Assembly: GCF_055900595.2 (NCBI RefSeq)
Contig: NZ_CM148325.1
Strand: one strand, 5' to 3'
DNA length: 64,000 nucleotides
A model generated the notes under the pieces. It had not been told where the DNA came from. It was given only the letters and a program-made list of their open reading frames with translations, and made no database searches. The position numbers were made by a program, and so were the translations under genes. This document shows, one piece after another, positions 17,297 through 58,645 of the stretch; position 1 is the first letter of the stretch, and the number at the start of each line of letters is the position of its first letter.

Positions 17297-17318
17297 AGTG
17301 TTGCCTTTTTGTTATCAA

Positions 17319-17349
17319 TAAAAAAGGCCCCCCGGTTTGGGAGGCCTTA
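17319..17349 (-). terminator. pheA attenuator terminator
   Basis: Minus-strand RNA AAGGCCTCCCAAACCGGGGGGCCTTTTTT between pheL and pheA. Confidence 0.8.
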
Positions 17350-17394
17350 TTGTTCGTCTTCGCATTCTGTTTCACACGACGAAACGCCTCCCAT

Positions 17395-17442
17395 TCAGGG
17401 GAAGGTAAAAAAGAATGCGAAGAAAAACGGTGTGTGTTTCAT
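17395..17442 (-). CDS. pheL: pheA leader peptide PheL (15 aa, Phe-rich)
   Basis: Minus-strand ATG at 17442 encodes [15 protein letters not shown]; not in ORF track because it is under 60 aa. Confidence 0.85.
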   Translation of the reverse strand: [15 protein letters not shown]

Positions 17443-17497
17443 GTTTGTTTCCTTAAGTGACTTCAGTACAGTACCCGTACTGTTTTCACGCTGTCAA

Positions 17498-18894: not shown

Positions 18895-19607
18895 AATGCG
18901 CCTGTAAGGCTCTGTTACCAGCCGCGCCCTAACAGGCGCATACGATCTGACATTTGCATTCAACTTCGTTACTTACGGCCCGTAAACGGGCTGCCCGGAT
19001 ATGGAATCGATAACTGCTCCCCCATTTTATCCTCTTCAAGCTGGTGCTTTATGTAGTCCTGTATCTTCGCCGTGTTCTTACCCACCGTATCGACATAGTA
19101 CCCTCGGCACCAGAACTCCCTGTTTCTGTATTTGAATTTCAAATCCCCAAACTGCTCGTAAAGCATCAGACTGCTTTTCCCTTTCAGATATCCCATAAAG
19201 CCGGATACGCTCATTTTGGGTGGGATTTCCACAAGCATATGGATATGATCTGCGCAGCACTCTGCTTCCAGAATCCGTACGCTTTTCCACTCACACAGCT
19301 TTCTCAAAATACTGCCTATCGCCCTACGCTTCTCTCCGTAAAACGCCAGTCTTCGGTATTTCGGCGCAAAAACTATGTGATATTTACAGTTCCAGCGGGT
19401 GTGCGCTAAGCTCTTTTCGTCCCCCATTGGGACCCCCTTTTGATTTCTTGTTTGACACTTGCAGTTGCCAGACCGCAAGGTGTTTTAACAAATCAAAAGG
19501 GGTTTTAATAACTGGCTCAAAGCTGAAAGCTTTCCGGAACCCCCAGCCTAGCTGGGGGTTTTCTGTGCACAAAAAAATCCGGAAACGAGTGAGCGTTTCC
19601 GGATTCT
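18895..19607 (-). mobile_element. IS200-like element (IS200/IS605 family), approx. 0.71 kb, boundaries +/- ~20 bp
   Basis: Contains Y1/HUH transposase tnpA, a terminator-like perfect palindrome near the left end (19577-19603), a 5'-UTR palindrome (19540-19558) and a 10-bp inverted repeat after the stop (18896-18905 / 18932-18941); extent inferred from expected IS4 leader length. Confidence 0.7.
18969..19427 (-). CDS. tnpA: IS200 transposase TnpA (Y1 HUH single-strand transposase)
   Basis: MGDEKSLAHTRWNCKYHIVFAPKYRR...HIHMLVEIPPK... 152 aa; the HxH (HIHML) motif is directly visible; ORF-track start at 19478 is an upstream extension. Confidence 0.9.
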   Translation of the reverse strand: MGDEKSLAHTRWNCKYHIVFAPKYRRLAFYGEKRRAIGSILRKLCEWKSVRILEAECCADHIHMLVEIPPKMSVSGFMGYLKGKSSLMLYEQFGDLKFKYRNREFWCRGYYVDTVGKNTAKIQDYIKHQLEEDKMGEQLSIPYPGSPFTGRK

Positions 19608-22273: not shown

Positions 22274-22334
22274 CCTAAAGAATCAAGACGATCCGGTACG
22301 CGTGATTTTCTTTTCACATTAATCTGGTCAATAA

Positions 22335-22364
22335 CCTTGAATAATTGAGGGATGACCTCATTTA
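22335..22364 (+). promoter_or_regulatory. Sigma-32 promoter of clpB
   Basis: ccttgaa (-35, 22335-22341) and cctcattta (-10, 22356-22364). Confidence 0.75.
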
Positions 22365-22402
22365 ATCTCCAGTAGCAACTTTGATCCGTTATGGGAGGAG
22401 TT

Positions 22403-24976
22403 ATGCGTCTGGATCGTCTTACTAATAAATTCCAGCTTGCTCTTGCCGATGCCCAATCACTTGCACTCGGGCACGACAACCAATTCATCGAACCACTTCA
22501 TTTAATGAGCGCCCTGCTGAATCAGGAAGGGGGTTCGGTTAGTCCTTTATTAACATCCGCCGGCATCAATGCTGGTCAGTTGCGCACAGATATCAATCAG
22601 GCATTAAATCGTTTACCGCAGGTTGAAGGCACTGGCGGCGATGTCCAGCCCTCACAGGATCTGGTGCGCGTTCTTAATCTTTGCGACAAGCTGGCGCAAA
22701 AACGTGGTGATAACTTTATCTCGTCAGAACTGTTCGTTCTGGCGGCACTTGAGTCTCGCGGCACGCTGGCCGACATCCTGAAAGCAGCAGGGGCGACCAC
22801 CGCCAACATTACTCAAGCGATTGAACAAATGCGTGGAGGTGAAAGCGTGAACGATCAAGGAGCTGAAGACCAACGTCAGGCTTTGAAAAAATACACTATC
22901 GACCTCACCGAACGAGCCGAACAAGGCAAACTCGATCCGGTGATTGGCCGTGATGAAGAAATTCGCCGTACCATTCAGGTACTGCAACGTCGTACTAAAA
23001 ATAACCCGGTGCTGATTGGTGAACCAGGCGTTGGTAAAACAGCCATCGTTGAAGGTCTGGCTCAGCGTATTATCAATGGCGAAGTGCCGGAAGGGTTGAA
23101 AGGCCGCCGCGTACTGGCGCTGGATATGGGCGCGCTGGTGGCTGGGGCGAAATATCGCGGTGAGTTTGAAGAGCGTTTAAAAGGCGTGCTTAACGATCTT
23201 GCCAAACAGGAAGGCAACGTCATCCTGTTTATCGACGAATTACATACCATGGTCGGCGCGGGTAAAGCCGATGGCGCAATGGATGCCGGCAACATGCTGA
23301 AACCGGCGCTGGCGCGTGGTGAATTGCACTGCGTAGGTGCCACGACACTGGACGAATATCGCCAGTACATCGAAAAAGATGCTGCGCTGGAACGTCGTTT
23401 CCAGAAAGTGTTTGTTGCCGAGCCAACCGTGGAAGACACCATTGCTATTCTGCGTGGCCTGAAAGAACGTTACGAACTGCACCACCATGTGCAAATTACT
23501 GACCCGGCAATTGTTGCAGCTGCGACATTATCTCATCGCTACATTGCTGACCGTCAGCTGCCGGATAAAGCCATCGACCTGATCGATGAAGCAGCATCCA
23601 GCATTCGTATGCAGATTGACTCAAAACCAGAAGAACTCGACCGACTCGATCGTCGTATCATCCAGCTCAAACTGGAACAACAGGCGTTAATGAAAGAGTC
23701 TGATGAAGCCAGTAAAAAACGCCTGGATATGCTCAACGAAGAACTGAGCGACAAAGAACGTCAGTATTCCGAGTTAGAAGAAGAGTGGAAAGCTGAGAAA
23801 GCGTCGCTTTCTGGTACGCAGACCATTAAAGCGGAACTGGAACAGGCGAAAATCGCCATTGAACAGGCTCGCCGTGTGGGTGATCTGGCGCGGATGTCTG
23901 AACTGCAATATGGCAAAATTCCAGAACTGGAAAAGCAACTGGAAGCCGCAACGCAGCTCGAAGGCAAAACTATGCGTCTCTTGCGTAATAAAGTGACCGA
24001 CGCCGAAATTGCTGAAGTGCTGGCGCGTTGGACGGGGATTCCGGTTTCTCGCATGATGGAAAGCGAGCGCGAAAAACTGCTGCGTATGGAGCAAGAGCTG
24101 CACCATCGCGTTATTGGTCAGAACGAAGCGGTTGATGCGGTATCTAACGCTATTCGTCGTAGCCGTGCGGGGCTTGCTGACCCGAATCGCCCGATTGGTT
24201 CATTCCTGTTCCTCGGCCCAACGGGTGTGGGGAAAACTGAGCTTTGTAAGGCGCTGGCGAACTTTATGTTTGATAGCGACGAGGCGATGGTCCGTATCGA
24301 TATGTCCGAGTTTATGGAGAAACACTCGGTGTCTCGTCTGGTTGGTGCGCCTCCGGGATATGTCGGTTATGAAGAAGGTGGCTACCTGACCGAAGCGGTG
24401 CGTCGTCGTCCGTATTCCGTCATCCTGCTGGATGAAGTGGAAAAAGCGCATCCGGATGTCTTCAACATTCTGTTGCAGGTACTGGATGATGGGCGTCTGA
24501 CTGACGGGCAGGGGAGAACGGTCGACTTCCGTAATACGGTTGTCATTATGACCTCTAACCTCGGTTCCGATTTGATTCAGGAACGCTTCGGTGAACTGGA
24601 TTATGCGCACATGAAAGAGCTGGTACTCGGTGTGGTAAGCCATAACTTCCGTCCGGAATTCATTAACCGTATCGATGAAGTGGTGGTCTTCCATCCGCTG
24701 GGTGAACAGCACATTGCGTCGATTGCGCAGATTCAGTTGAAACGTCTGTACAAACGTCTGGAAGAACGTGGTTATGAAATCCACATTTCTGACGAGGCGC
24801 TGAAACTGCTGAGCGAGAACGGTTACGATCCGGTCTATGGTGCACGTCCTCTGAAACGTGCTATCCAGCAGCAGATCGAAAACCCGCTGGCACAGCAAAT
24901 ACTGTCTGGTGAATTGGTTCCGGGTAAAGTTATTCGCCTGGAAGTTAATGAAGACAGGATTGTCGCCGTCCAGTAA
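22403..24976 (+). CDS. clpB: Chaperone ClpB (Hsp100 disaggregase)
   Basis: [27 protein letters not shown]... 857 aa, two AAA+ modules; ORF-track 22391 start is 4 codons upstream. Confidence 0.96.
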
Positions 24977-25417: not shown

Positions 25418-26959
<1,542 letters not shown>

Positions 26960-27044: not shown

Positions 27045-27120
27045 GTCCCCTTCGTCTAGAGGCCCAGGACACCGCCCTTTCACGGCGGTAACAGGGGTTC
27101 GAATCCCCTAGGGGACGCCA
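27045..27120 (+). tRNA. gltW: tRNA-Glu (UUC) in the 16S-23S spacer
   Basis: GTCCCCTTCGTCTAGAGGCCCAGGACACCGCCCTTTCACGGCGGTAACAGGGGTTCGAATCCCCTAGGGGACGCCA. Confidence 0.97.
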
Positions 27121-27314: not shown

Positions 27315-30219
<2,905 letters not shown>

Positions 30220-30312: not shown

Positions 30313-30432
30313 TGCCTGGCGGCCTTAGCGCGGTGGTCCCACCTGACCCCATGCCGAACTCAGAAGTGAAACGCCGTAGCGCCGATGGTAGTGTGGGGTC
30401 TCCCCATGCGAGAGTAGGGAACTGCCAGGCAT
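30313..30432 (+). rRNA. rrfG: 5S ribosomal RNA
   Basis: TGCCTGGCGGC...GGAACTGCCAGGCAT, 120 nt. Confidence 0.97.
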
Positions 30433-42075: not shown

Positions 42076-42272
42076 TGCCGGGCTTAAACCCGGCACCTAA
42101 CTTGTCGACGAAGTGCGTTTTGTTCATGCCGGATGCGGCGTGAACGCCTTATCCGGCCTACAAGATCGTGCAAATTCAATATATTGCATGAGCCATGTAG
42201 GCCTGATAAGCGTAGAGCATCAGGCAGTTTTGCGTTTGCCAGCACTTTTAATTCCGGGCTTAAACCCGGAAT
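42076..42272. repeat. BIME: two inverted REP elements flanked by near-identical ccgggcttaaacccgg palindromes
   Basis: REP gccggatgcggcgtgaacgccttatccggcctac (42128-42161), inverted REP gtaggcctgataagcgtagagcatcaggc (42197-42225), palindromes at 42078-42093 and 42255-42270. Confidence 0.75.
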
Positions 42273-47753: not shown

Positions 47754-48709
47754 TGAAGCAACTTTGGTTTGCCATGTCATTAGTGACAGGTAGCCTGTTA
47801 TTCTCTGCTAACGCCTCGGCCACTCCCGCGTCCGGGGCGTTATTACAGCAGATGAACCTGGCCAGTCAGTCACTGAATTACGAGCTGTCATTCATCAGCA
47901 TCAATAAACAGGGTGTTGAGTCTCTGCGTTATCGACATGCACGCCTCGATAACCGTCCTCTTGCACAATTGTTGCAAATGGATGGCCCGCGCCGGGAAGT
48001 GGTACAGCGCGGCAATGAAATCAGCTACTTTGAACCGGGCCTTGAACCGTTCACGCTTAATGGCGATTACATTGTTGATTCTCTGCCATCGCTCATCTAT
48101 ACCGATTTCAAACGCCTTTCTCCTTACTACGACTTTATCTCCGTGGGACGCACGCGTATTGCTGATCGTCTTTGCGAAGTCATTCGCGTGGTGGCCCGTG
48201 ATGGCACACGCTACAGCTACATCGTGTGGATGGACACCGAATCGAAATTACCGATGCGGGTTGATCTCCTTGATCGCGATGGTGAAACGCTGGAACAATT
48301 TCGCGTGATTGCTTTTAACGTTAATCAGGATATCAGCAGCAGTATGCAGACGCTGGCGAAAGCAAATCTGCCGCCGCTGCTTTCTGTTCCTGTAGGTGAA
48401 AAAGCTAAATTCAGCTGGACGCCAACCTGGTTGCCACAGGGGTTTAGTGAAGTTTCCAGCAGCCGACGTCCGTTACCGACGATGGACAACATGCCTATCG
48501 AATCACGTCTCTATTCCGACGGATTATTCAGCTTCTCGGTAAACGTTAACCGCGCTACGCCATCGAGCACCGATCAGATGTTGCGCACCGGACGCAGAAC
48601 CGTCAGTACAAGCGTACGTGATAACGCCGAAATCACCATTGTCGGCGAACTGCCGCCGCAAACGGCGAAACGCATTGCCGAGAATATTAAGTTCGGGGCA
48701 GCGCAATGA
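47753..48709 (+). CDS. rseB: Sigma-E regulatory protein RseB
   Basis: 318 aa with signal peptide. Confidence 0.95.
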   Translation: MKQLWFAMSLVTGSLLFSANASATPASGALLQQMNLASQSLNYELSFISINKQGVESLRYRHARLDNRPLAQLLQMDGPRREVVQRGNEISYFEPGLEPFTLNGDYIVDSLPSLIYTDFKRLSPYYDFISVGRTRIADRLCEVIRVVARDGTRYSYIVWMDTESKLPMRVDLLDRDGETLEQFRVIAFNVNQDISSSMQTLAKANLPPLLSVPVGEKAKFSWTPTWLPQGFSEVSSSRRPLPTMDNMPIESRLYSDGLFSFSVNVNRATPSSTDQMLRTGRRTVSTSVRDNAEITIVGELPPQTAKRIAENIKFGAAQ

Positions 48710-49185
48710 TCAAAGAGTGGGCTACGGTCGTCTCCTGGCAAAACGGGCAGGCGCTGGTCAGTTGTGATGTTAAAGCCTCATGCAGCAGCTGTGCTTCCCG
48801 TGTCGGTTGCGGTAGCCGCGTGCTGAATAAACTTGGCCCACAAACCACGCATACCATTGTCGTACCCTGTGATGAACCGTTAGTACCGGGGCAAAAAGTG
48901 GAATTAGGAATCACCGAAGGCAGCCTGCTTAGCTCCGCATTACTGGTTTATATGTCGCCGTTGGTGGGATTATTCCTCATCGCTTCGTTATTTCAGCTAC
49001 TCTTTGCTTCAGATCTTGCAGCATTATGCGGTGCGATTCTCGGCGGCGTTGGTGGATTCCTGATTGCACGCAGCTACTCGCGAAAGTTTGCTGCCCGGGC
49101 AGAATGGCAACCGATCATCTTAAGCGTGGCATTGCCGCCAGGCCTTGTGCGATTTGAAACATCTTCGGAAGACGCGAGCCAGTGA
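48706..49185 (+). CDS. rseC: Sigma-E regulatory protein RseC
   Basis: 159 aa membrane protein; overlaps rseB stop by 4 nt. Confidence 0.93.
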   Translation: MIKEWATVVSWQNGQALVSCDVKASCSSCASRVGCGSRVLNKLGPQTTHTIVVPCDEPLVPGQKVELGITEGSLLSSALLVYMSPLVGLFLIASLFQLLFASDLAALCGAILGGVGGFLIARSYSRKFAARAEWQPIILSVALPPGLVRFETSSEDASQ

Positions 49186-49382
49186 TTTCACTGGCTTTGT
49201 TGCATTTTGCATAACAAATGCGAGGACGTTTCCAGATACCACAATCCATACCGTATGAACATTTCCTCGCCTCAATGTTGTAGTGTAGAATGCGGCGTTT
49301 CTATTAATACAGACGTTAAGCTCAGAACAGCGACTTCTAAAAGCCTGGTTAACCGGGCATTAAGGCACAATAATCATACTTT

Positions 49383-51182
<1,800 letters not shown>

Positions 51183-52172: not shown

Positions 52173-52318
52173 TAGCTTATCTTCGTTCACGTTGTCGCCG
52201 TTATGGCGACAACGTGAATTATTTATGAGATAAATCCCCCGTGGCTAACGACATCCCCCGTCGTTGTGTATAGAATATTCCCCCGAAGTTTAAGGTTGGC
52301 ACCTCCAGGTTGCCACGG

Positions 52319-52410
52319 CACACGAAACAGCGTTGGTCCCCATATACCGGTAAACTGAAACTGCAGCGAAGCAGTTAGCAGAGCCATGTATATCAGGTCT
52401 GTTTCGTGTG
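52319..52410 (+). promoter_or_regulatory. rnc leader long stem (RNase III autoregulatory processing structure)
   Basis: 12-bp perfect inverted repeat cacacgaaacag (52319-52330) / ctgtttcgtgtg (52399-52410) in the 5' UTR of rnc. Confidence 0.65.
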
Positions 52411-52414
52411 CTGA

Positions 52415-54027
<1,613 letters not shown>

Positions 54028-54898: not shown

Positions 54899-55630
54899 AT
54901 GGCTGAATTACTGTTAGGCGTCAACATTGACCATATTGCAACGCTGCGTAACGCACGTGGTACTGCTTACCCGGATCCGGTGCAGGCGGCGTTTATTGCT
55001 GAGCAGGCGGGGGCGGATGGCATTACCGTGCATCTACGTGAAGATCGTCGCCACATTACCGACCGCGACGTGCGCATCCTGCGTCAGACGCTGGATACCC
55101 GCATGAATCTGGAGATGGCGGTGACCGAAGAGATGCTGGCGATCGCCGTTGAAACAAAGCCGCATTTTTGCTGCCTGGTACCGGAAAAGCGTCAGGAAGT
55201 AACAACCGAAGGCGGCCTGGACGTCGCTGGACAGCGTGAAAAAATGCGCGATGCCTGCAAACGTCTGGCGGAGGCCGGGATCCTGGTTTCTCTGTTTATC
55301 GACGCCGATGAAGAGCAGATCAAAGCTGCGGCAGAGGTTGGCGCACCGTTTATCGAGATCCACACCGGTTGCTATGCTGATGCCAAAACTGACGCCGAAC
55401 AGGCGCAAGAGCTGGCGCGTATCGCCAAAGCCGCGGCCTTTGCCGCAAGTCTCGGTCTGAAAGTTAACGCTGGTCACGGTCTGACCTATCACAACGTGAA
55501 AGCCATTGCCGCCATTCCTGAGATGCACGAACTGAATATCGGTCATGCCATTATTGGTCGTGCAGTGATGACCGGACTGAAAGATGCGGTGGCAGAAATG
55601 AAGCGTTTGATGCTGGAAGCGCGTGGCTAA
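54899..55630 (+). CDS. pdxJ: Pyridoxine 5'-phosphate synthase
   Basis: [21 protein letters not shown]... 243 aa. Confidence 0.95.
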
Positions 55631-56010
55631 TGGCAATATTAGGTTTAGGCACGGATATCGTGGAGATCGCTCGCATAGAAGCGGTGATCGCCCGATCCGG
55701 TGAGCGCCTGGCTCGCCGCGTATTAAGCGATAACGAATGGGAAATCTGGAAAACGCACCACCAGCCAGTGCGTTTTCTGGCGAAGCGCTTTGCCGTAAAA
55801 GAAGCCGCAGCAAAAGCGTTTGGCACCGGGATCCGCAATGGTCTGGCGTTTAATCAGTTTGAAGTATTTAACGATGAGCTTGGTAAGCCACGGCTGCGAC
55901 TGTGGGGCGAGGCATTAAAACTGGCGGAAAAGCTCGGCGTTGTAAATATGCATGTAACGCTGGCAGATGAACGCCACTATGCTTGCGCCACGGTAATTAT
56001 CGAAAGTTAA
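55630..56010 (+). CDS. acpS: Holo-[acyl-carrier-protein] synthase
   Basis: [32 protein letters not shown]... 126 aa. Confidence 0.96.
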
Positions 56011-56029
56011 AATAATACCGTTCTCTTTA

Positions 56030-56072
56030 AAAAGTAAAACCCCCGAACTGGTAAGGAACGGGGGTTTTACTT
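56030..56072. terminator. Terminator hairpin downstream of acpS
   Basis: aaaacccccgaactggtaaggaacgggggtttt flanked by A/T runs. Confidence 0.7.
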
Positions 56073-56429
56073 TACAACTTTAATTTTGTGCAGCACACGA
56101 TTCCAACAAAAATGATTATGGATCAATTTAGTTATCCTGTACAAGCAACTTGCAATCTTTAGCATAAAAACTCGAGCCTTTACGAAGAAATCGATATTGA
56201 TGAAAAGATTAACGTGACCGCTTTTTGATAAGTACATTAGAATCGGCGTCGTTATTGGATATTTTGCTGTGTTCTACGCCATGCCACTGAATTCCCCCAT
56301 TGAAACGAGTGGTGTCGTCAAAGCTCTGGTGTGGAGTGCGGCACTCGATTCCAATAACTCGCACGTTCAGTTTTGGGGAGATGTAAGGGCTAATCTGAAC
56401 GGCTGCATTCCTTGTTTAAGGAAAAACGA

Positions 56430-56510
56430 ATGACTGATTGCCGATACCTGATTAAACGGGTCATTAAAGTCGTCATTGCTGTTTTACAGCTGATCCTTCT
56501 GTTCTTGTAA
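56430..56510 (+). CDS. shoB: Type I toxin ShoB (26-aa hydrophobic membrane peptide)
   Basis: atg...taa encodes MTDCRYLIKRVIKVVIAVLQLILLFL*, matching ShoB; absent from ORF track because it is under 60 aa. Confidence 0.8.
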   Translation: MTDCRYLIKRVIKVVIAVLQLILLFL

Positions 56511-56703
56511 CACCAGGAAACGTACTTAAGGCGCGTCAGGTTAACCAGCCAGGCGCGCCTTTAATAATTATAAATAAATGTCTGGGCAGATATTATATAA
56601 ATTCATTTGGTGAATAATTATGCTAATGTCATCAATTAAATAAATATAATGGCGTTAAGGCTTTCCTGTAAAATATTTAATACTCTACTTCCAGAGCAAA
56701 ATA

Positions 56704-57000
<297 letters not shown>

Positions 57001-57114: not shown

Positions 57115-57129
57115 GGTAATGACTCCAAC

Positions 57130-57633
57130 TTATTGATAGTGTTTTATGTTCAGATAATGCCCGATGACTTTGTCATGCAGCTCCACCGATTTTGAGAACG
57201 ACAGCGACTTCCGTCCCAGCCGTGCCAGGTGCTGCCTCAGATTCAGGTTATGCCGCTCAATTCGCTGCGTATATCGCTTGCTGATTACGTGCAGCTTTCC
57301 CTTCAGGCGGGATTCATACAGCGGCCAGCCATCCGTCATCCATATCACCACGTCAAAGGGTGACAGCAGGCTCATAAGACGCCCCAGCGTCGCCATAGTG
57401 CGTTCACCGAATACGTGCGCAACAACCGTCTTCCGGAGCCTGTCATACGCGTAAAACAGCCAGCGCTGGCGCGATTTAGCCCCGACATAGCCCCACTGTT
57501 CGTCCATTTCCGCGCAGACGATGACGTCACTGCCCGGCTGTATGCGCGAGGTTACCGACTGCGGCCTGAGTTTTTTAAGTGACGTAAAATCGTGTTGAGG
57601 CCAACGCCCATAATGCGGGCAGTTGCCCGGCAT
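57130..57633 (-). CDS. insB: IS1 InsB reading frame (expressed as InsAB' transposase by -1 frameshift)
   Basis: 167-aa ORF overlapping insA 3' end in the -1 frame. Confidence 0.9.
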
Positions 57634-57827
57634 CCAACGCCATTCATGGCCATATCAATGATTTTCTGGTGCGTACCGGGTTGAGAAGCGGTGTAAGTGA
57701 ACTGCAGTTGCCATGTTTTACGGCAGTGAGAGCAGAGATAGCGCTGATGTCCGGCGGTGCTTTTGCCGTTACGCACCACCCCGTCAGTAGCTGAACAGGA
57801 GGGACAGCTGATAGAAACAGAAGCCAC
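57552..57827 (-). CDS. insA: IS1 protein InsA
   Basis: [43 protein letters not shown]... 91 aa. Confidence 0.93.
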
Positions 57828-57877
57828 TGGAGCACCTCAAAAACACCATCATACACTAAATCAGTAAGTTGGCAGCA

Positions 57878-58645
57878 TCACCGTAAATCCGTTAACATTC
57901 CCTGAGCGTGACAAGCAGAGATTGCAGCACTGTTTGTCGCTTGTTCTTCGGCAATGGTATACAGGCAATGAGAAGCACGCTGTTGCAGGGCATTGGGAGT
58001 AAAGCCGGTAATCGCCAGCACTTTTCCGCCCACTCGCAGCATCTCATCTGCCGCCAGGTTTAACTCGCGTCGTACACCGGTGTAGGAAATGGCTAATAAC
58101 AGATCGTCAGGGGACGACGCCTGTACTGTAGCGAGTAGCGCATGCATATCGCGCACTGCGGCAGCATTGAAGCCAATCTTCATCAGCTTCCAGGCAAAGT
58201 TTTGCGCCACCAGACCCGAAGCGCCAATACCGGTCAGAATTATCCGCCGTGCAGAGCGCAACATTGTTACGCATTCATGCAGTTTCTCTTCACTATTAAC
58301 ATTTAGCGTTGCGTACATAGCGGCAGTATTTTCTTTAATCAGTTTTTCGCCGACCAGCCGTAACGGATCATCACCGCGGATTTGGTTATGAATGGGCACG
58401 GAGGGAGATTCCGGCTGGCTTGCCAGCGCTTCACTCAACGCCAACTTAAGTGCCGGAAAACCTTTATAGCCGAGTTTTTGCGCGAACTTCACGACGCTGG
58501 ACTGACTGACTCCGGCTTCGTTGGCCAGTTGCTGAGAGCTTAAATGGCGCGCCGTATCAGGTTGTAGCAGCAGATAGTCCGCCAGTTTTTTATCACTCTG
58601 GGCAAGCCCCTGGTAACGCTGACGGATACGAAGTAAGCCGTTCAT
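57878..58645 (-). pseudogene. yfhH: RpiR-family (HTH + SIS domain) regulator YfhH, C-terminally truncated by IS1
   Basis: MNGLLRIRQRYQGLAQSDKKLADYLL... reads ...GMLTDL then enters IS1 and stops after one codon (R*). Confidence 0.8.

What the first reader, a model, noticed from the sequence alone, without database searches (positions are those of the whole stretch)
56073..56510. shoB type I toxin is present but invisible to the ORF track; ohsC antitoxin sRNA expected upstream
A 26-codon ORF encodes MTDCRYLIKRVIKVVIAVLQLILLFL, the ShoB membrane toxin (two conservative I-to-V differences from the K-12 peptide as I recall it). In K-12 the divergently transcribed OhsC sRNA lies in the acpS-shoB gap; I cannot place its exact coordinates from sequence alone.
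Basis: partly seen in the sequence, partly recalled or inferred. Interest (0 to 1): 0.4.

Follow-up and report, generated by a model that had tools for sequence, protein, structure and literature searches.

The report
Known ShoB toxin / OhsC antitoxin locus
This is the ordinary, already-described E. coli shoB–ohsC small-toxin/antisense-RNA pair. The one point of interest is that this strain carries a common alternative version in which the RNA and its target site have changed together.

Summary
A 26-codon ORF (56430..56510, +) encodes MTDCRYLIKRVIKVVIAVLQLILLFL, which is ShoB with I14V and I15V relative to K-12. It scores 101.7 bits against Rfam RF02495 (gathering 50). It abuts acpS and shares a bidirectional terminator with it. 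Synteny (pdxJ-acpS-ohsC-shoB-yfhL), both promoters and the sequestered Shine-Dalgarno match K-12, so the locus is already known.

The added value concerns the pairing site. OhsC nt 1-20 and shoB 5'UTR 56336..56355 differ from K-12 at 7 positions in each partner, and 6 of these are matched double changes that keep pairing. In 5,426 complete E. coli genomes:
- 1,689 carry this "type B" pair, including O157:H7 and ST131 strains.
- About 3,700 carry the K-12 "type A" pair.
- One genome carries a mixed pair.

Predicted cognate duplexes are −33 to −41 kcal/mol; non-cognate ones are about −22. A 2024 paper listed retention of shoB-ohsC pairing as unresolved. The locus is a ~690-bp Escherichia-only insert between acpS and yfhL, which abut in other Enterobacterales. 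The repression mechanism (standby-site block plus RNase III) is inferred by analogy and from K-12 literature.

The parts
56430..56510 (+). shoB CDS: 26 codons plus TAA, ShoB toxin MTDCRYLIKRVIKVVIAVLQLILLFL (I14V, I15V vs K-12)
   Evidence: RefSeq annotation in an identical genome; exact peptide named ShoB in public collections
56029..56107 (-). ohsC antitoxin sRNA gene, 79 nt by equivalence to the K-12 annotation b4608 (Rfam match 56031..56107). The 5' end is G at 56107.
   Evidence: Rfam RF02495 101.7 bits vs gathering 50; K-12 annotation and sequence
56088..56107 (-). OhsC nt 1-20 (5'-GUUGGAAUCGUGUGCUGCAC), the region that pairs with shoB mRNA; 'type B' allele
   Evidence: Direct repeat D1 on the + strand, 56088-56109 / 56336-56357, 19/22 identical; duplex -33.5 kcal/mol, z = -7.5 vs 1000 dinucleotide shuffles
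56336..56355 (+). OhsC target in the shoB 5'UTR (GUGCGGCACUCGAUUCCAAU), 75-94 nt upstream of the AUG. Of 20 positions, 17 are Watson-Crick, 2 are G.U and 1 is a U.U mismatch.
56344..56350 (+). Allele-defining block CTCGATT (K-12: TGCACCC). It lies in the predicted unpaired junction between helices P2 and P1 of the full-length mRNA.
56031..56073 (.). Perfect 15-bp inverted repeat with a 13-nt loop. It is a bidirectional intrinsic terminator serving acpS (+) and ohsC (-).
   Evidence: the repeat finder I1; Rfam structure line, and a weaker + strand hit caused by the palindrome
56115..56144 (-). ohsC promoter: -35 TTGTAC (56144..56139), 18-nt spacer, -10 CATAAT (56120..56115)
   Evidence: same elements as reported in PMC11264685 (TTGTAC in 33.1% of strains; CATAAT in 100%)
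56214..56243 (+). shoB promoter: -35 GTGACC (56214-56219), 18-nt spacer, -10 TAGAAT (56238-56243). The -10 is a rare variant of the usual TAAAAT.
   Evidence: PMC11264685 reports TAAAAT in 99.6% of strains
56250..56566 (+). Predicted shoB primary transcript of about 317 nt with a 180-nt 5'UTR. The start is inferred from the -10 element and the end from the terminator.
   Evidence: Inference; length agrees with the ~320-nt full-length shoB mRNA reported for K-12 (PMC5668327)
56408..56423 (+). Hairpin UUCCUU-GUUU-AAGGAA that sequesters the Shine-Dalgarno sequence (AAGGAA 56418-56423). It is invariant in 20 haplotypes.
56528..56561 (+). Predicted shoB terminator hairpin, followed by TTTAATAATT
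   Evidence: MFE fold; not picked up by the simple terminator scan

Best explanation

Shown here: shoB (56430..56510, +) encodes the 26-aa hydrophobic ShoB peptide. It lies at the end of a predicted ~317-nt mRNA with a 180-nt 5'UTR. ohsC (56029..56107, -) is transcribed divergently from a promoter about 70 bp from the shoB promoter and ends at the terminator it shares with acpS. The first 20 nt of OhsC are complementary to shoB mRNA 75-94 nt upstream of the start codon.

Inferred, by analogy with tisB/IstR-1 and zorO/OrzO and from K-12 literature: the full-length mRNA is translationally inert, because the SD is locked in a local hairpin and the OhsC target is held by pairing with the first ~35 nt of the mRNA. 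5' processing to the ~280-nt form activates it. OhsC binding to the upstream site blocks ribosome loading (standby) and creates an RNase III substrate, keeping ShoB off.

Specific to this allele: the centre of the pairing site has been replaced in both partners together (6 matched double changes vs K-12). OhsC-B therefore matches shoB-B and is predicted to pair poorly with shoB-A.
For: Identity:
- Peptide 24/26 identical to K-12 ShoB and 26/26 to ShoB of E. whittamii and other Escherichia.
- Rfam ohsC_RNA at 101.7 bits against a gathering score of 50.
- K-12 and RefSeq annotations in the same synteny.
- Spacer present in 5,425 of 5,426 E. coli genomes.

Pairing:
- 22-nt direct repeat on the + strand, 19/22 identical.
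- Duplex -33.5 kcal/mol against shuffles at -16.3 +/- 2.3, with 0 of 1000 reaching it.

Co-variation:
- 6 of 20 intermolecular pairs changed on both sides. 95.7% of cells are paired, and 0 of 500 shuffles reach the covariation score.
- Haplotype counts: B/B 1,689 genomes; both K-12-type segments 3,114; about 615 further type-A-target genomes whose ohsC seed was not matched by megablast; ohsC-B with shoB-A in 1; ohsC-A1 with shoB-B in 0.
- All 80 metagenome contigs where both sites could be read are concordant.
- Non-cognate duplexes are -21.5 and -22.3 kcal/mol; cognate ones are -33.5 and -41.4.

Structure:
- The RNAalifold consensus over 20 haplotypes has an invariant SD hairpin, helix P2 with wobble-only changes, and one compensatory pair in P1 (GC/GU/AU).

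Literature:
- OhsC abolishes ShoB toxicity. Transcripts of ~320 nt and ~280 nt exist, and only the processed one is translated (PMC5668327).
- An RNase III site lies in the shoB/OhsC duplex (PMC6212723).
- 5'-end pairing of 19 nt in K-12 (PMC3919570).
Against: - No expression or toxicity data exist for this strain.
- The type B duplex has a fixed internal U.U mismatch. This window adds a U.G wobble, so its duplex is predicted to be weaker than K-12's (-33.5 vs -41.4 kcal/mol).
- Structural covariation within the 5'UTR is statistically weak: 49 of 500 shuffles reach the observed score.
- In-silico removal of the first 28-44 nt raises predicted target accessibility only modestly, from 0.27 to about 0.45.
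- The standby-site mechanism has never been demonstrated for shoB.
- One natural strain carries a mismatched pair with an intact shoB, so tight pairing is not essential for viability.
- The near-absence of recombinants could reflect only the 250-bp physical linkage.
- NCBIfam has no ShoB model (0 hits).
Confidence: 0.9

Rival explanations
1. The locus is present but regulation has decayed in this lineage. The U.U mismatch plus the extra U.G wobble, the rare -10 variant (TAGAAT) and the I14V/I15V changes would mean that OhsC no longer controls shoB effectively, or that ShoB is no longer toxic.
For: The duplex is predicted to be 8 kcal/mol weaker than in K-12. The -10 TAGAAT variant belongs to the <0.4% minority. 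A naturally mismatched strain is viable.
Against: The U.U mismatch is fixed in all ~1,690 type B genomes, so it is tolerated. A.U to G.U keeps both the intermolecular pair and the intramolecular P2 pair. I-to-V is conservative, and the VV peptide is the E. whittamii form and widespread. The ORF, SD, SD hairpin and both promoters are intact.
Confidence: 0.06
2. The Rfam hit only reflects the acpS intrinsic terminator, and no separate sRNA is made.
For: About half of the model is the terminator hairpin. The palindrome also gives a 36.7-bit hit on the + strand, and PMC11264685 notes the same self-match.
Against: The minus-strand match is full length (1-77) at twice the gathering score, including the 5' 33 nt. 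A -35/-10 promoter sits at the correct distance from the K-12 5' end. The 5' 20 nt co-vary with the shoB target, which is unexplained if they are not transcribed.
Confidence: 0.02
3. Translation of shoB is controlled hok/mok-style through an upstream ORF rather than a standby site. This is a mechanistic alternative, not an alternative identity. The ORF is 50 codons from ATG 56281, or 54 from GTG 56269. Its TGA stop overlaps the shoB ATG (ATGA), and OhsC acts by cutting or blocking within it.
For: The ORF is open in all 20 distinct haplotypes and ends in an ATGA overlap with shoB. The OhsC target lies inside it.
Against: There is no recognisable SD upstream of either start. Every substitution seen in it is non-synonymous: L/Q, LDS/CTL/RIL, F/V/L, N/S, G/S. 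That pattern fits RNA-level rather than protein-level constraint. Its ATG is buried in predicted helix P2. No such ORF is reported in the shoB literature read here.
Confidence: 0.08

Closest known systems
shoB-ohsC of E. coli K-12 MG1655 (b4687 / b4608; Rfam RF02495)
   Same: Same genomic site (acpS-ohsC-shoB-yfhL), same orientation, 26-aa toxin, 79-nt sRNA with the same terminator, same promoters, same SD hairpin, and the same position of the pairing site.
   Different: - Seven positions in the centre of the pairing site are replaced in both OhsC and the shoB 5'UTR (type B vs type A).
- One internal U.U mismatch and one extra G.U.
- ShoB I14V and I15V.
- shoB -10 is TAGAAT, not TAAAAT; ohsC -35 is TTGTAC, not TTGTAA.
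shoB-ohsC 'type B' allele of E. coli O157:H7, ST131 and about 31% of complete genomes
   Same: Identical OhsC 5' 20 nt, and the same target apart from one base.
   Different: - The window has G instead of A at 56340 (a U.G wobble).
- Its shoB ORF and 3'UTR match E. whittamii (1 difference in 141 nt) rather than other type B strains (13 differences), so the haplotype looks mosaic.
- Only 8 genomes are at least 99% identical over the spacer.
tisB/istR-1, zorO/orzO and dinQ/agrB (divergent type I TA loci of E. coli)
   Same: The antitoxin gene is divergent. There is an 18-21-nt pairing between the sRNA 5' end and a site far upstream of the RBS in a long 5'UTR. The primary transcript is inactive and is activated by 5' processing. 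RNase III cleaves the duplex (PMC4147584, PMC5668327, PMC6212723).
   Different: There is no sequence similarity. The standby-site mechanism has been shown for tisB and zorO but not for shoB. zor-orz discrimination acts between paralogous copies in one genome, whereas the shoB-ohsC types are alleles of a single-copy locus.

Membership tests
ShoB-OhsC type I toxin-antitoxin | 26-aa hydrophobic peptide homologous to K-12 ShoB | tested here: met
   24/26 identical to K-12; 26/26 to public 'ShoB [Escherichia]' entries
ShoB-OhsC type I toxin-antitoxin | OhsC sRNA matching Rfam RF02495 above the gathering score | tested here: met
   101.7 bits vs 50, model 1-77/77, minus strand 56031..56107
ShoB-OhsC type I toxin-antitoxin | Location between acpS and yfhL, with the two genes divergent | tested here: met
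   ORFs and annotations
ShoB-OhsC type I toxin-antitoxin | 5' end of OhsC complementary (~19 nt) to the shoB 5'UTR | tested here: met
   20 positions: 17 Watson-Crick, 2 G.U, 1 U.U; -33.5 kcal/mol, z = -7.5. The helix is interrupted, unlike the 19 contiguous pairs in K-12.
ShoB-OhsC type I toxin-antitoxin | Sigma-70 promoters for both genes as mapped in K-12 | tested here: met
   Sequence elements are present at the expected positions. Transcription itself was not tested.
ShoB-OhsC type I toxin-antitoxin | ShoB overproduction is toxic or depolarising, and OhsC relieves it | not testable with these tools
   Known for K-12 only (PMC5668327)
ShoB-OhsC type I toxin-antitoxin | NCBIfam or Pfam model hit for the toxin | tested here: inconclusive
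   NCBIfam returned 0 families, so no ShoB model exists there. The peptide is too short for the Pfam tool.
Standby-site / 5'-processing controlled type I toxins (tisB-like mechanism) | RBS sequestered in a stable local structure | tested here: met
   Predicted UUCCUU/AAGGAA hairpin, invariant in 20 haplotypes; P(unpaired) of the SD 0.13-0.22. In silico only.
Standby-site / 5'-processing controlled type I toxins (tisB-like mechanism) | Antitoxin site far upstream of the RBS, occluded in the primary transcript and exposed after 5' processing | tested here: inconclusive
   The site is 75-94 nt upstream of the AUG, and both of its flanks pair with nt 2-32 in the consensus fold. However, in-silico truncation raises accessibility only from 0.27 to about 0.45, and covariation support is weak at 49/500.
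Standby-site / 5'-processing controlled type I toxins (tisB-like mechanism) | RNase III cleavage of the toxin mRNA-antitoxin duplex | not testable with these tools
   Reported for K-12 shoB/OhsC (PMC6212723)

The most novel reading that the evidence does not exclude
The shoB-ohsC locus exists in E. coli as two old, co-adapted 'specificity' alleles, A (~69%) and B (~31%). Their sRNA seeds and mRNA targets are mutually non-cognate. On this reading, recombinants that mix them are selected against, with one mixed genome found among 5,426. That would make this single-copy chromosomal type I TA a small recombination-incompatibility module. The allele-defining 7 nt sit in the predicted accessible junction where OhsC would nucleate pairing.
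Probability: 0.35. Interest if true: 0.45.

Novelty: already known. Interest (0 to 1): 0.22.

Why it matters
For annotation, it is a reminder that the 26-codon shoB and its sRNA partner escape ORF-based tracks. Both can be placed exactly here.

Biologically, the modest new point is that the large variation in the shoB-ohsC pairing region, flagged as unresolved in a 2024 survey (PMC11264685), resolves into a few haplotypes. In these, sRNA and target have changed together and pairing is kept. That is comparative evidence that the OhsC-shoB interaction is under selection in nature. It also identifies ready-made natural reagents for testing antitoxin specificity: type A, type B, an A2 wobble form, and one natural mismatch strain.

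Tried and rejected
- **NCBIfam scan of the peptide:** no family. This is uninformative because no ShoB HMM exists.
- **Primary papers:** Fozo 2008 (PMC2597788) and Fozo 2012 are not held, so K-12 facts are taken from later open papers.
- **RNAduplex with full-length OhsC:** it gave inflated energies of -51 to -58 kcal/mol by opening the terminator. I replaced it with the 5' 24-33 nt. The L003 rows are invalid because the anchor failed, and I ignored them.
- **Simple terminator scan:** it found nothing, because the loop is 13 nt. The hairpin is seen with the repeat finder.
- **Structural covariation in the shoB 5'UTR:** it does not reach significance, at 49/500.
- **In-silico 5' truncation:** it does not clearly expose the target.
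- **Upstream ORF:** considered as a mok-like reading frame and judged probably non-coding.
- **ShoB and ohsC in other genera:** no homologues in 77 non-Escherichia Enterobacterales loci by tblastn or blastn.
- **CpxR boxes CB1/CB2:** these could not be placed because the source paper gives them only in a figure.

Full report
**1. What is in the sequence**

The window between acpS (55630..56010, +) and yfhL (56704..56964, −) is a 693-bp spacer. An ATG at 56430 opens 26 codons ending in TAA at 56508-56510. The mechanical ORF list shows it only as a TTG-extended 32-aa ORF.

Aligned to K-12 MG1655, the ORF differs by GTC GTC for ATC ATC (I14V, I15V) plus two synonymous changes. A complete genome that is 100% identical over the spacer (strain Z0117EC0005) has the ORF annotated as 'type I toxin-antitoxin system toxin ShoB'. 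The exact peptide is in public collections as 'ShoB [Escherichia]' on at least 1000 contigs.

**2. Where OhsC is**

Rfam's ohsC_RNA model (RF02495) matches 56031..56107 on the minus strand at 101.7 bits. The gathering score is 50, and the match is full length. The K-12 record annotates ohsC as 79 nt starting at the same G and ending two Ts further on. The equivalent in the window is therefore 56029..56107 (−).

The 3' half of ohsC is a perfect 15-bp hairpin (56031-56045 / 56059-56073) lying 20 nt after the acpS stop. This hairpin is a bidirectional terminator shared by acpS and ohsC, and it explains the weaker + strand Rfam hit.

- ohsC promoter: -35 TTGTAC 56144..56139, -10 CATAAT 56120..56115.
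- shoB promoter: -35 GTGACC 56214-56219, -10 TAGAAT 56238-56243.

Both are present and correspond to the elements tabulated for more than 2,000 E. coli in PMC11264685. The window's shoB -10 (TAGAAT) is the rare form; TAAAAT occurs in 99.6% of strains.

**3. The pairing site and its allelic form**

On the + strand, 56088-56109 (under the OhsC 5' end) and 56336-56357 (shoB 5'UTR) form a 22-nt direct repeat, 19/22 identical. OhsC nt 1-20 is therefore complementary to shoB mRNA 75-94 nt upstream of the AUG. Of the 20 positions, 17 are Watson-Crick, 2 are G.U and 1 is a U.U mismatch.

The duplex of OhsC nt 1-24 with the 180-nt UTR is -33.5 kcal/mol. Dinucleotide shuffles give -16.3 ± 2.3 (z = -7.5; 0 of 1000 reach the observed value).

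Compared with K-12, the window differs in two matching blocks:

| | K-12 | Window |
|---|---|---|
| ohsC | ...GCAGCATGCACCCTCAAC | ...GCAGCACACGATTCCAAC |
| shoB UTR | ...GCAGCATGCACCCTCAAT | ...GCGGCACTCGATTCCAAT |

Seven positions changed in each partner. Six of them are the same change in both, so pairing is kept. The seventh gives the U.U mismatch.

Counted on the seven distinct seed/target haplotypes I found, 6 of 20 pairs have changes on both sides and 95.7% of cells are paired. No shuffle out of 500 reaches the covariation score, and slid registers give 24-48% pairing. The haplotypes are few and related, so the shuffle figure is indicative rather than a probability.

**4. Population picture**

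I used chimeric 94-nt queries, joining an ohsC segment to a shoB-target segment. Megablast needs a 28-mer, so the other allele type does not seed.

| Query | Genomes with any match | Genomes with both segments |
|---|---|---|
| B+B | 1,696 | 1,689 |
| A+A | 3,729 | 3,114 |
| ohsC-B + shoB-A | 5,407 | 1 |
| ohsC-A1 + shoB-B | 4,893 | 0 |

- The B+B matches include O157:H7 and ST131 strains.
- About 615 of the A+A matches hit only the shoB-A segment. The two I inspected (L010, L093) carry an 'A2' ohsC with one T-to-C change, which turns one pair into a G.U wobble.
- 1,696 + 3,729 = 5,425, which equals the number of genomes that have the spacer.
- The single ohsC-B + shoB-A genome is Z1323CEC0015. 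Its sequence is a clean mosaic with a crossover between the two promoters and an intact shoB.
- Eighty metagenome contigs fetched with a conserved UTR 31-mer are all concordant where both sites can be read. One A2 variant has the target T-to-C change that restores a G-C pair.
- The A/B split matches the 66.8% / 33.1% dimorphism of the ohsC -35 reported in PMC11264685.

[quoted passage not shown] The counts above address that point.

Predicted non-cognate duplexes are -21.5 and -22.3 kcal/mol, against -33.5 (window) and -41.4 (K-12) for cognate pairs.

One caution applies. The two sites are 250 bp apart, so the scarcity of recombinants may be plain linkage. The argument for selection on pairing rests on the matched substitutions, not on the linkage.

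**5. mRNA architecture (predicted)**

Taking +1 about 7 nt after the -10 element (56250) and the hairpin 56528-56561 as terminator gives a ~317-nt mRNA. This fits the ~320-nt full-length transcript reported for K-12, alongside a ~280-nt processed form that alone is translated (PMC5668327).

RNAalifold on 20 distinct haplotypes gives three elements:

- **P1**, nt 2-9 with 102-109. Pair 9:102 occurs as G-C in 8 haplotypes, G.U in 8 and A-U in 4.
- **P2**, nt 16-32 with 78-94. It shows five pairs with wobble-preserving one-sided changes and none broken.
- **An invariant hairpin** UUCCUU/AAGGAA that buries the SD.

In this fold the OhsC target (nt 87-106) has both flanks paired to the first ~35 nt of the mRNA. 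The allele-defining 7 nt (56344-56350) form the unpaired junction, which is a plausible nucleation site.

Support for this fold is limited. Only 1 pair is compensatory and 49 of 500 shuffles reach the observed score. In-silico removal of 28-44 nt raises target accessibility only from 0.27 to about 0.45. I therefore present the architecture as a model.

**6. Mechanism**

Shown here:
- Both genes, their promoters and terminators.
- The complementarity and its co-variation.

Taken from K-12 literature:
- ShoB is toxic and depolarising, and OhsC abolishes the toxicity.
- Only the processed mRNA is translated.
- An RNase III site lies in the duplex.
- OhsC pairs through its 5' end.

Inferred by analogy with tisB/IstR-1 and zorO/OrzO:
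- OhsC blocks ribosome standby upstream of a sequestered RBS and triggers cleavage.

An alternative hok/mok-like coupling through an upstream ORF is not excluded but seems unlikely. That ORF starts at ATG 56281 (50 codons) or GTG 56269 (54 codons), and its TGA overlaps the shoB ATG. It is open in all 20 haplotypes. However, it lacks an SD, and every substitution seen in it is non-synonymous.

**7. Distribution**

I fetched loci for 80 species representatives using AcpS.

- shoB and ohsC were found only in E. coli and E. whittamii.
- In E. albertii only the start of the locus was found, because the contig ends inside the ohsC terminator.
- In most other Enterobacterales, acpS and yfhL are convergent and abut or overlap.

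The ~690-bp module is therefore an Escherichia-specific insert, consistent with PMC2887945. E. whittamii has the type A target and the VV peptide.

**8. Verdict**

The exact ohsC coordinates, the allele type and the co-variation analysis are the added content. Interest is low for the finding as posed. It is moderate for the question of whether the two allele types are functionally non-interchangeable.

Noticed in passing
window 57115-57879: An IS1 element (insA/insB ORFs 57130..57827, minus strand) is inserted relative to the otherwise 100% identical strain Z0117EC0005. It interrupts the 3' end of yfhH, the MurR/RpiR regulator next to yfhL. About 12 nt are duplicated at the junction.
   Followed up: partly
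L092 (NZ_CP148423.1, E. coli Z1323CEC0015) 1434-1950: This is the only genome of 5,426 with a mismatched pair: a type B ohsC seed with a type A shoB target. It is a clean mosaic with the crossover between the two promoters, and the ShoB ORF is intact. It is a natural test case for whether OhsC pairing matters.
   Followed up: partly
L015-L091 around locus position 1878-1881: In most non-Escherichia Enterobacterales fetched, convergent acpS and yfhL end at the same position with no spacer. The whole 693-bp ohsC-shoB module, including the terminator used by acpS, is therefore an Escherichia-specific insertion.
   Followed up: partly
window 56269-56433 (+): An upstream ORF in the shoB 5'UTR (54 codons from GTG, 50 from ATG 56281) has a TGA stop overlapping the shoB ATG (ATGA). 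It is open in all 20 haplotypes, but it has no SD and all observed substitutions are non-synonymous. It is probably non-coding.
   Followed up: partly
window 56430-56570 vs L013 (E. whittamii) and L003: The window's shoB ORF and 3'UTR/terminator differ from E. whittamii at 1 of 141 nt, but from other type B E. coli at 13. Its ohsC and 5'UTR are type B. The haplotype looks mosaic, or VV plus this terminator is the ancestral state.
   Followed up: partly
window 56238-56243: The shoB -10 is TAGAAT, whereas 99.6% of surveyed E. coli have TAAAAT (PMC11264685). The effect on promoter strength is unknown.
   Followed up: no
L011 (CP52E) and L094 (EC96): In two E. coli genomes an IS1 has replaced or disrupted shoB while leaving ohsC or part of it. 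These are antitoxin-only loci of the kind mentioned in PMC11264685. Together with the window's own IS1, the acpS-yfhH neighbourhood seems to be a recurrent IS1 target.
   Followed up: no
window 17318-52499: Other Rfam hits above gathering place the window in the K-12 2.70-2.76 Mb region. They are: an rrn operon (16S 25418-26959, tRNA 27045-27117, 23S 27315-30219, 5S 30315-30430), Phe leader 17318-17443, STnc490 19437-19560, RyfD 22284-22422, ES036 42162-42204, AsrC 48670-49501 and rncO 52285-52499.
   Followed up: no
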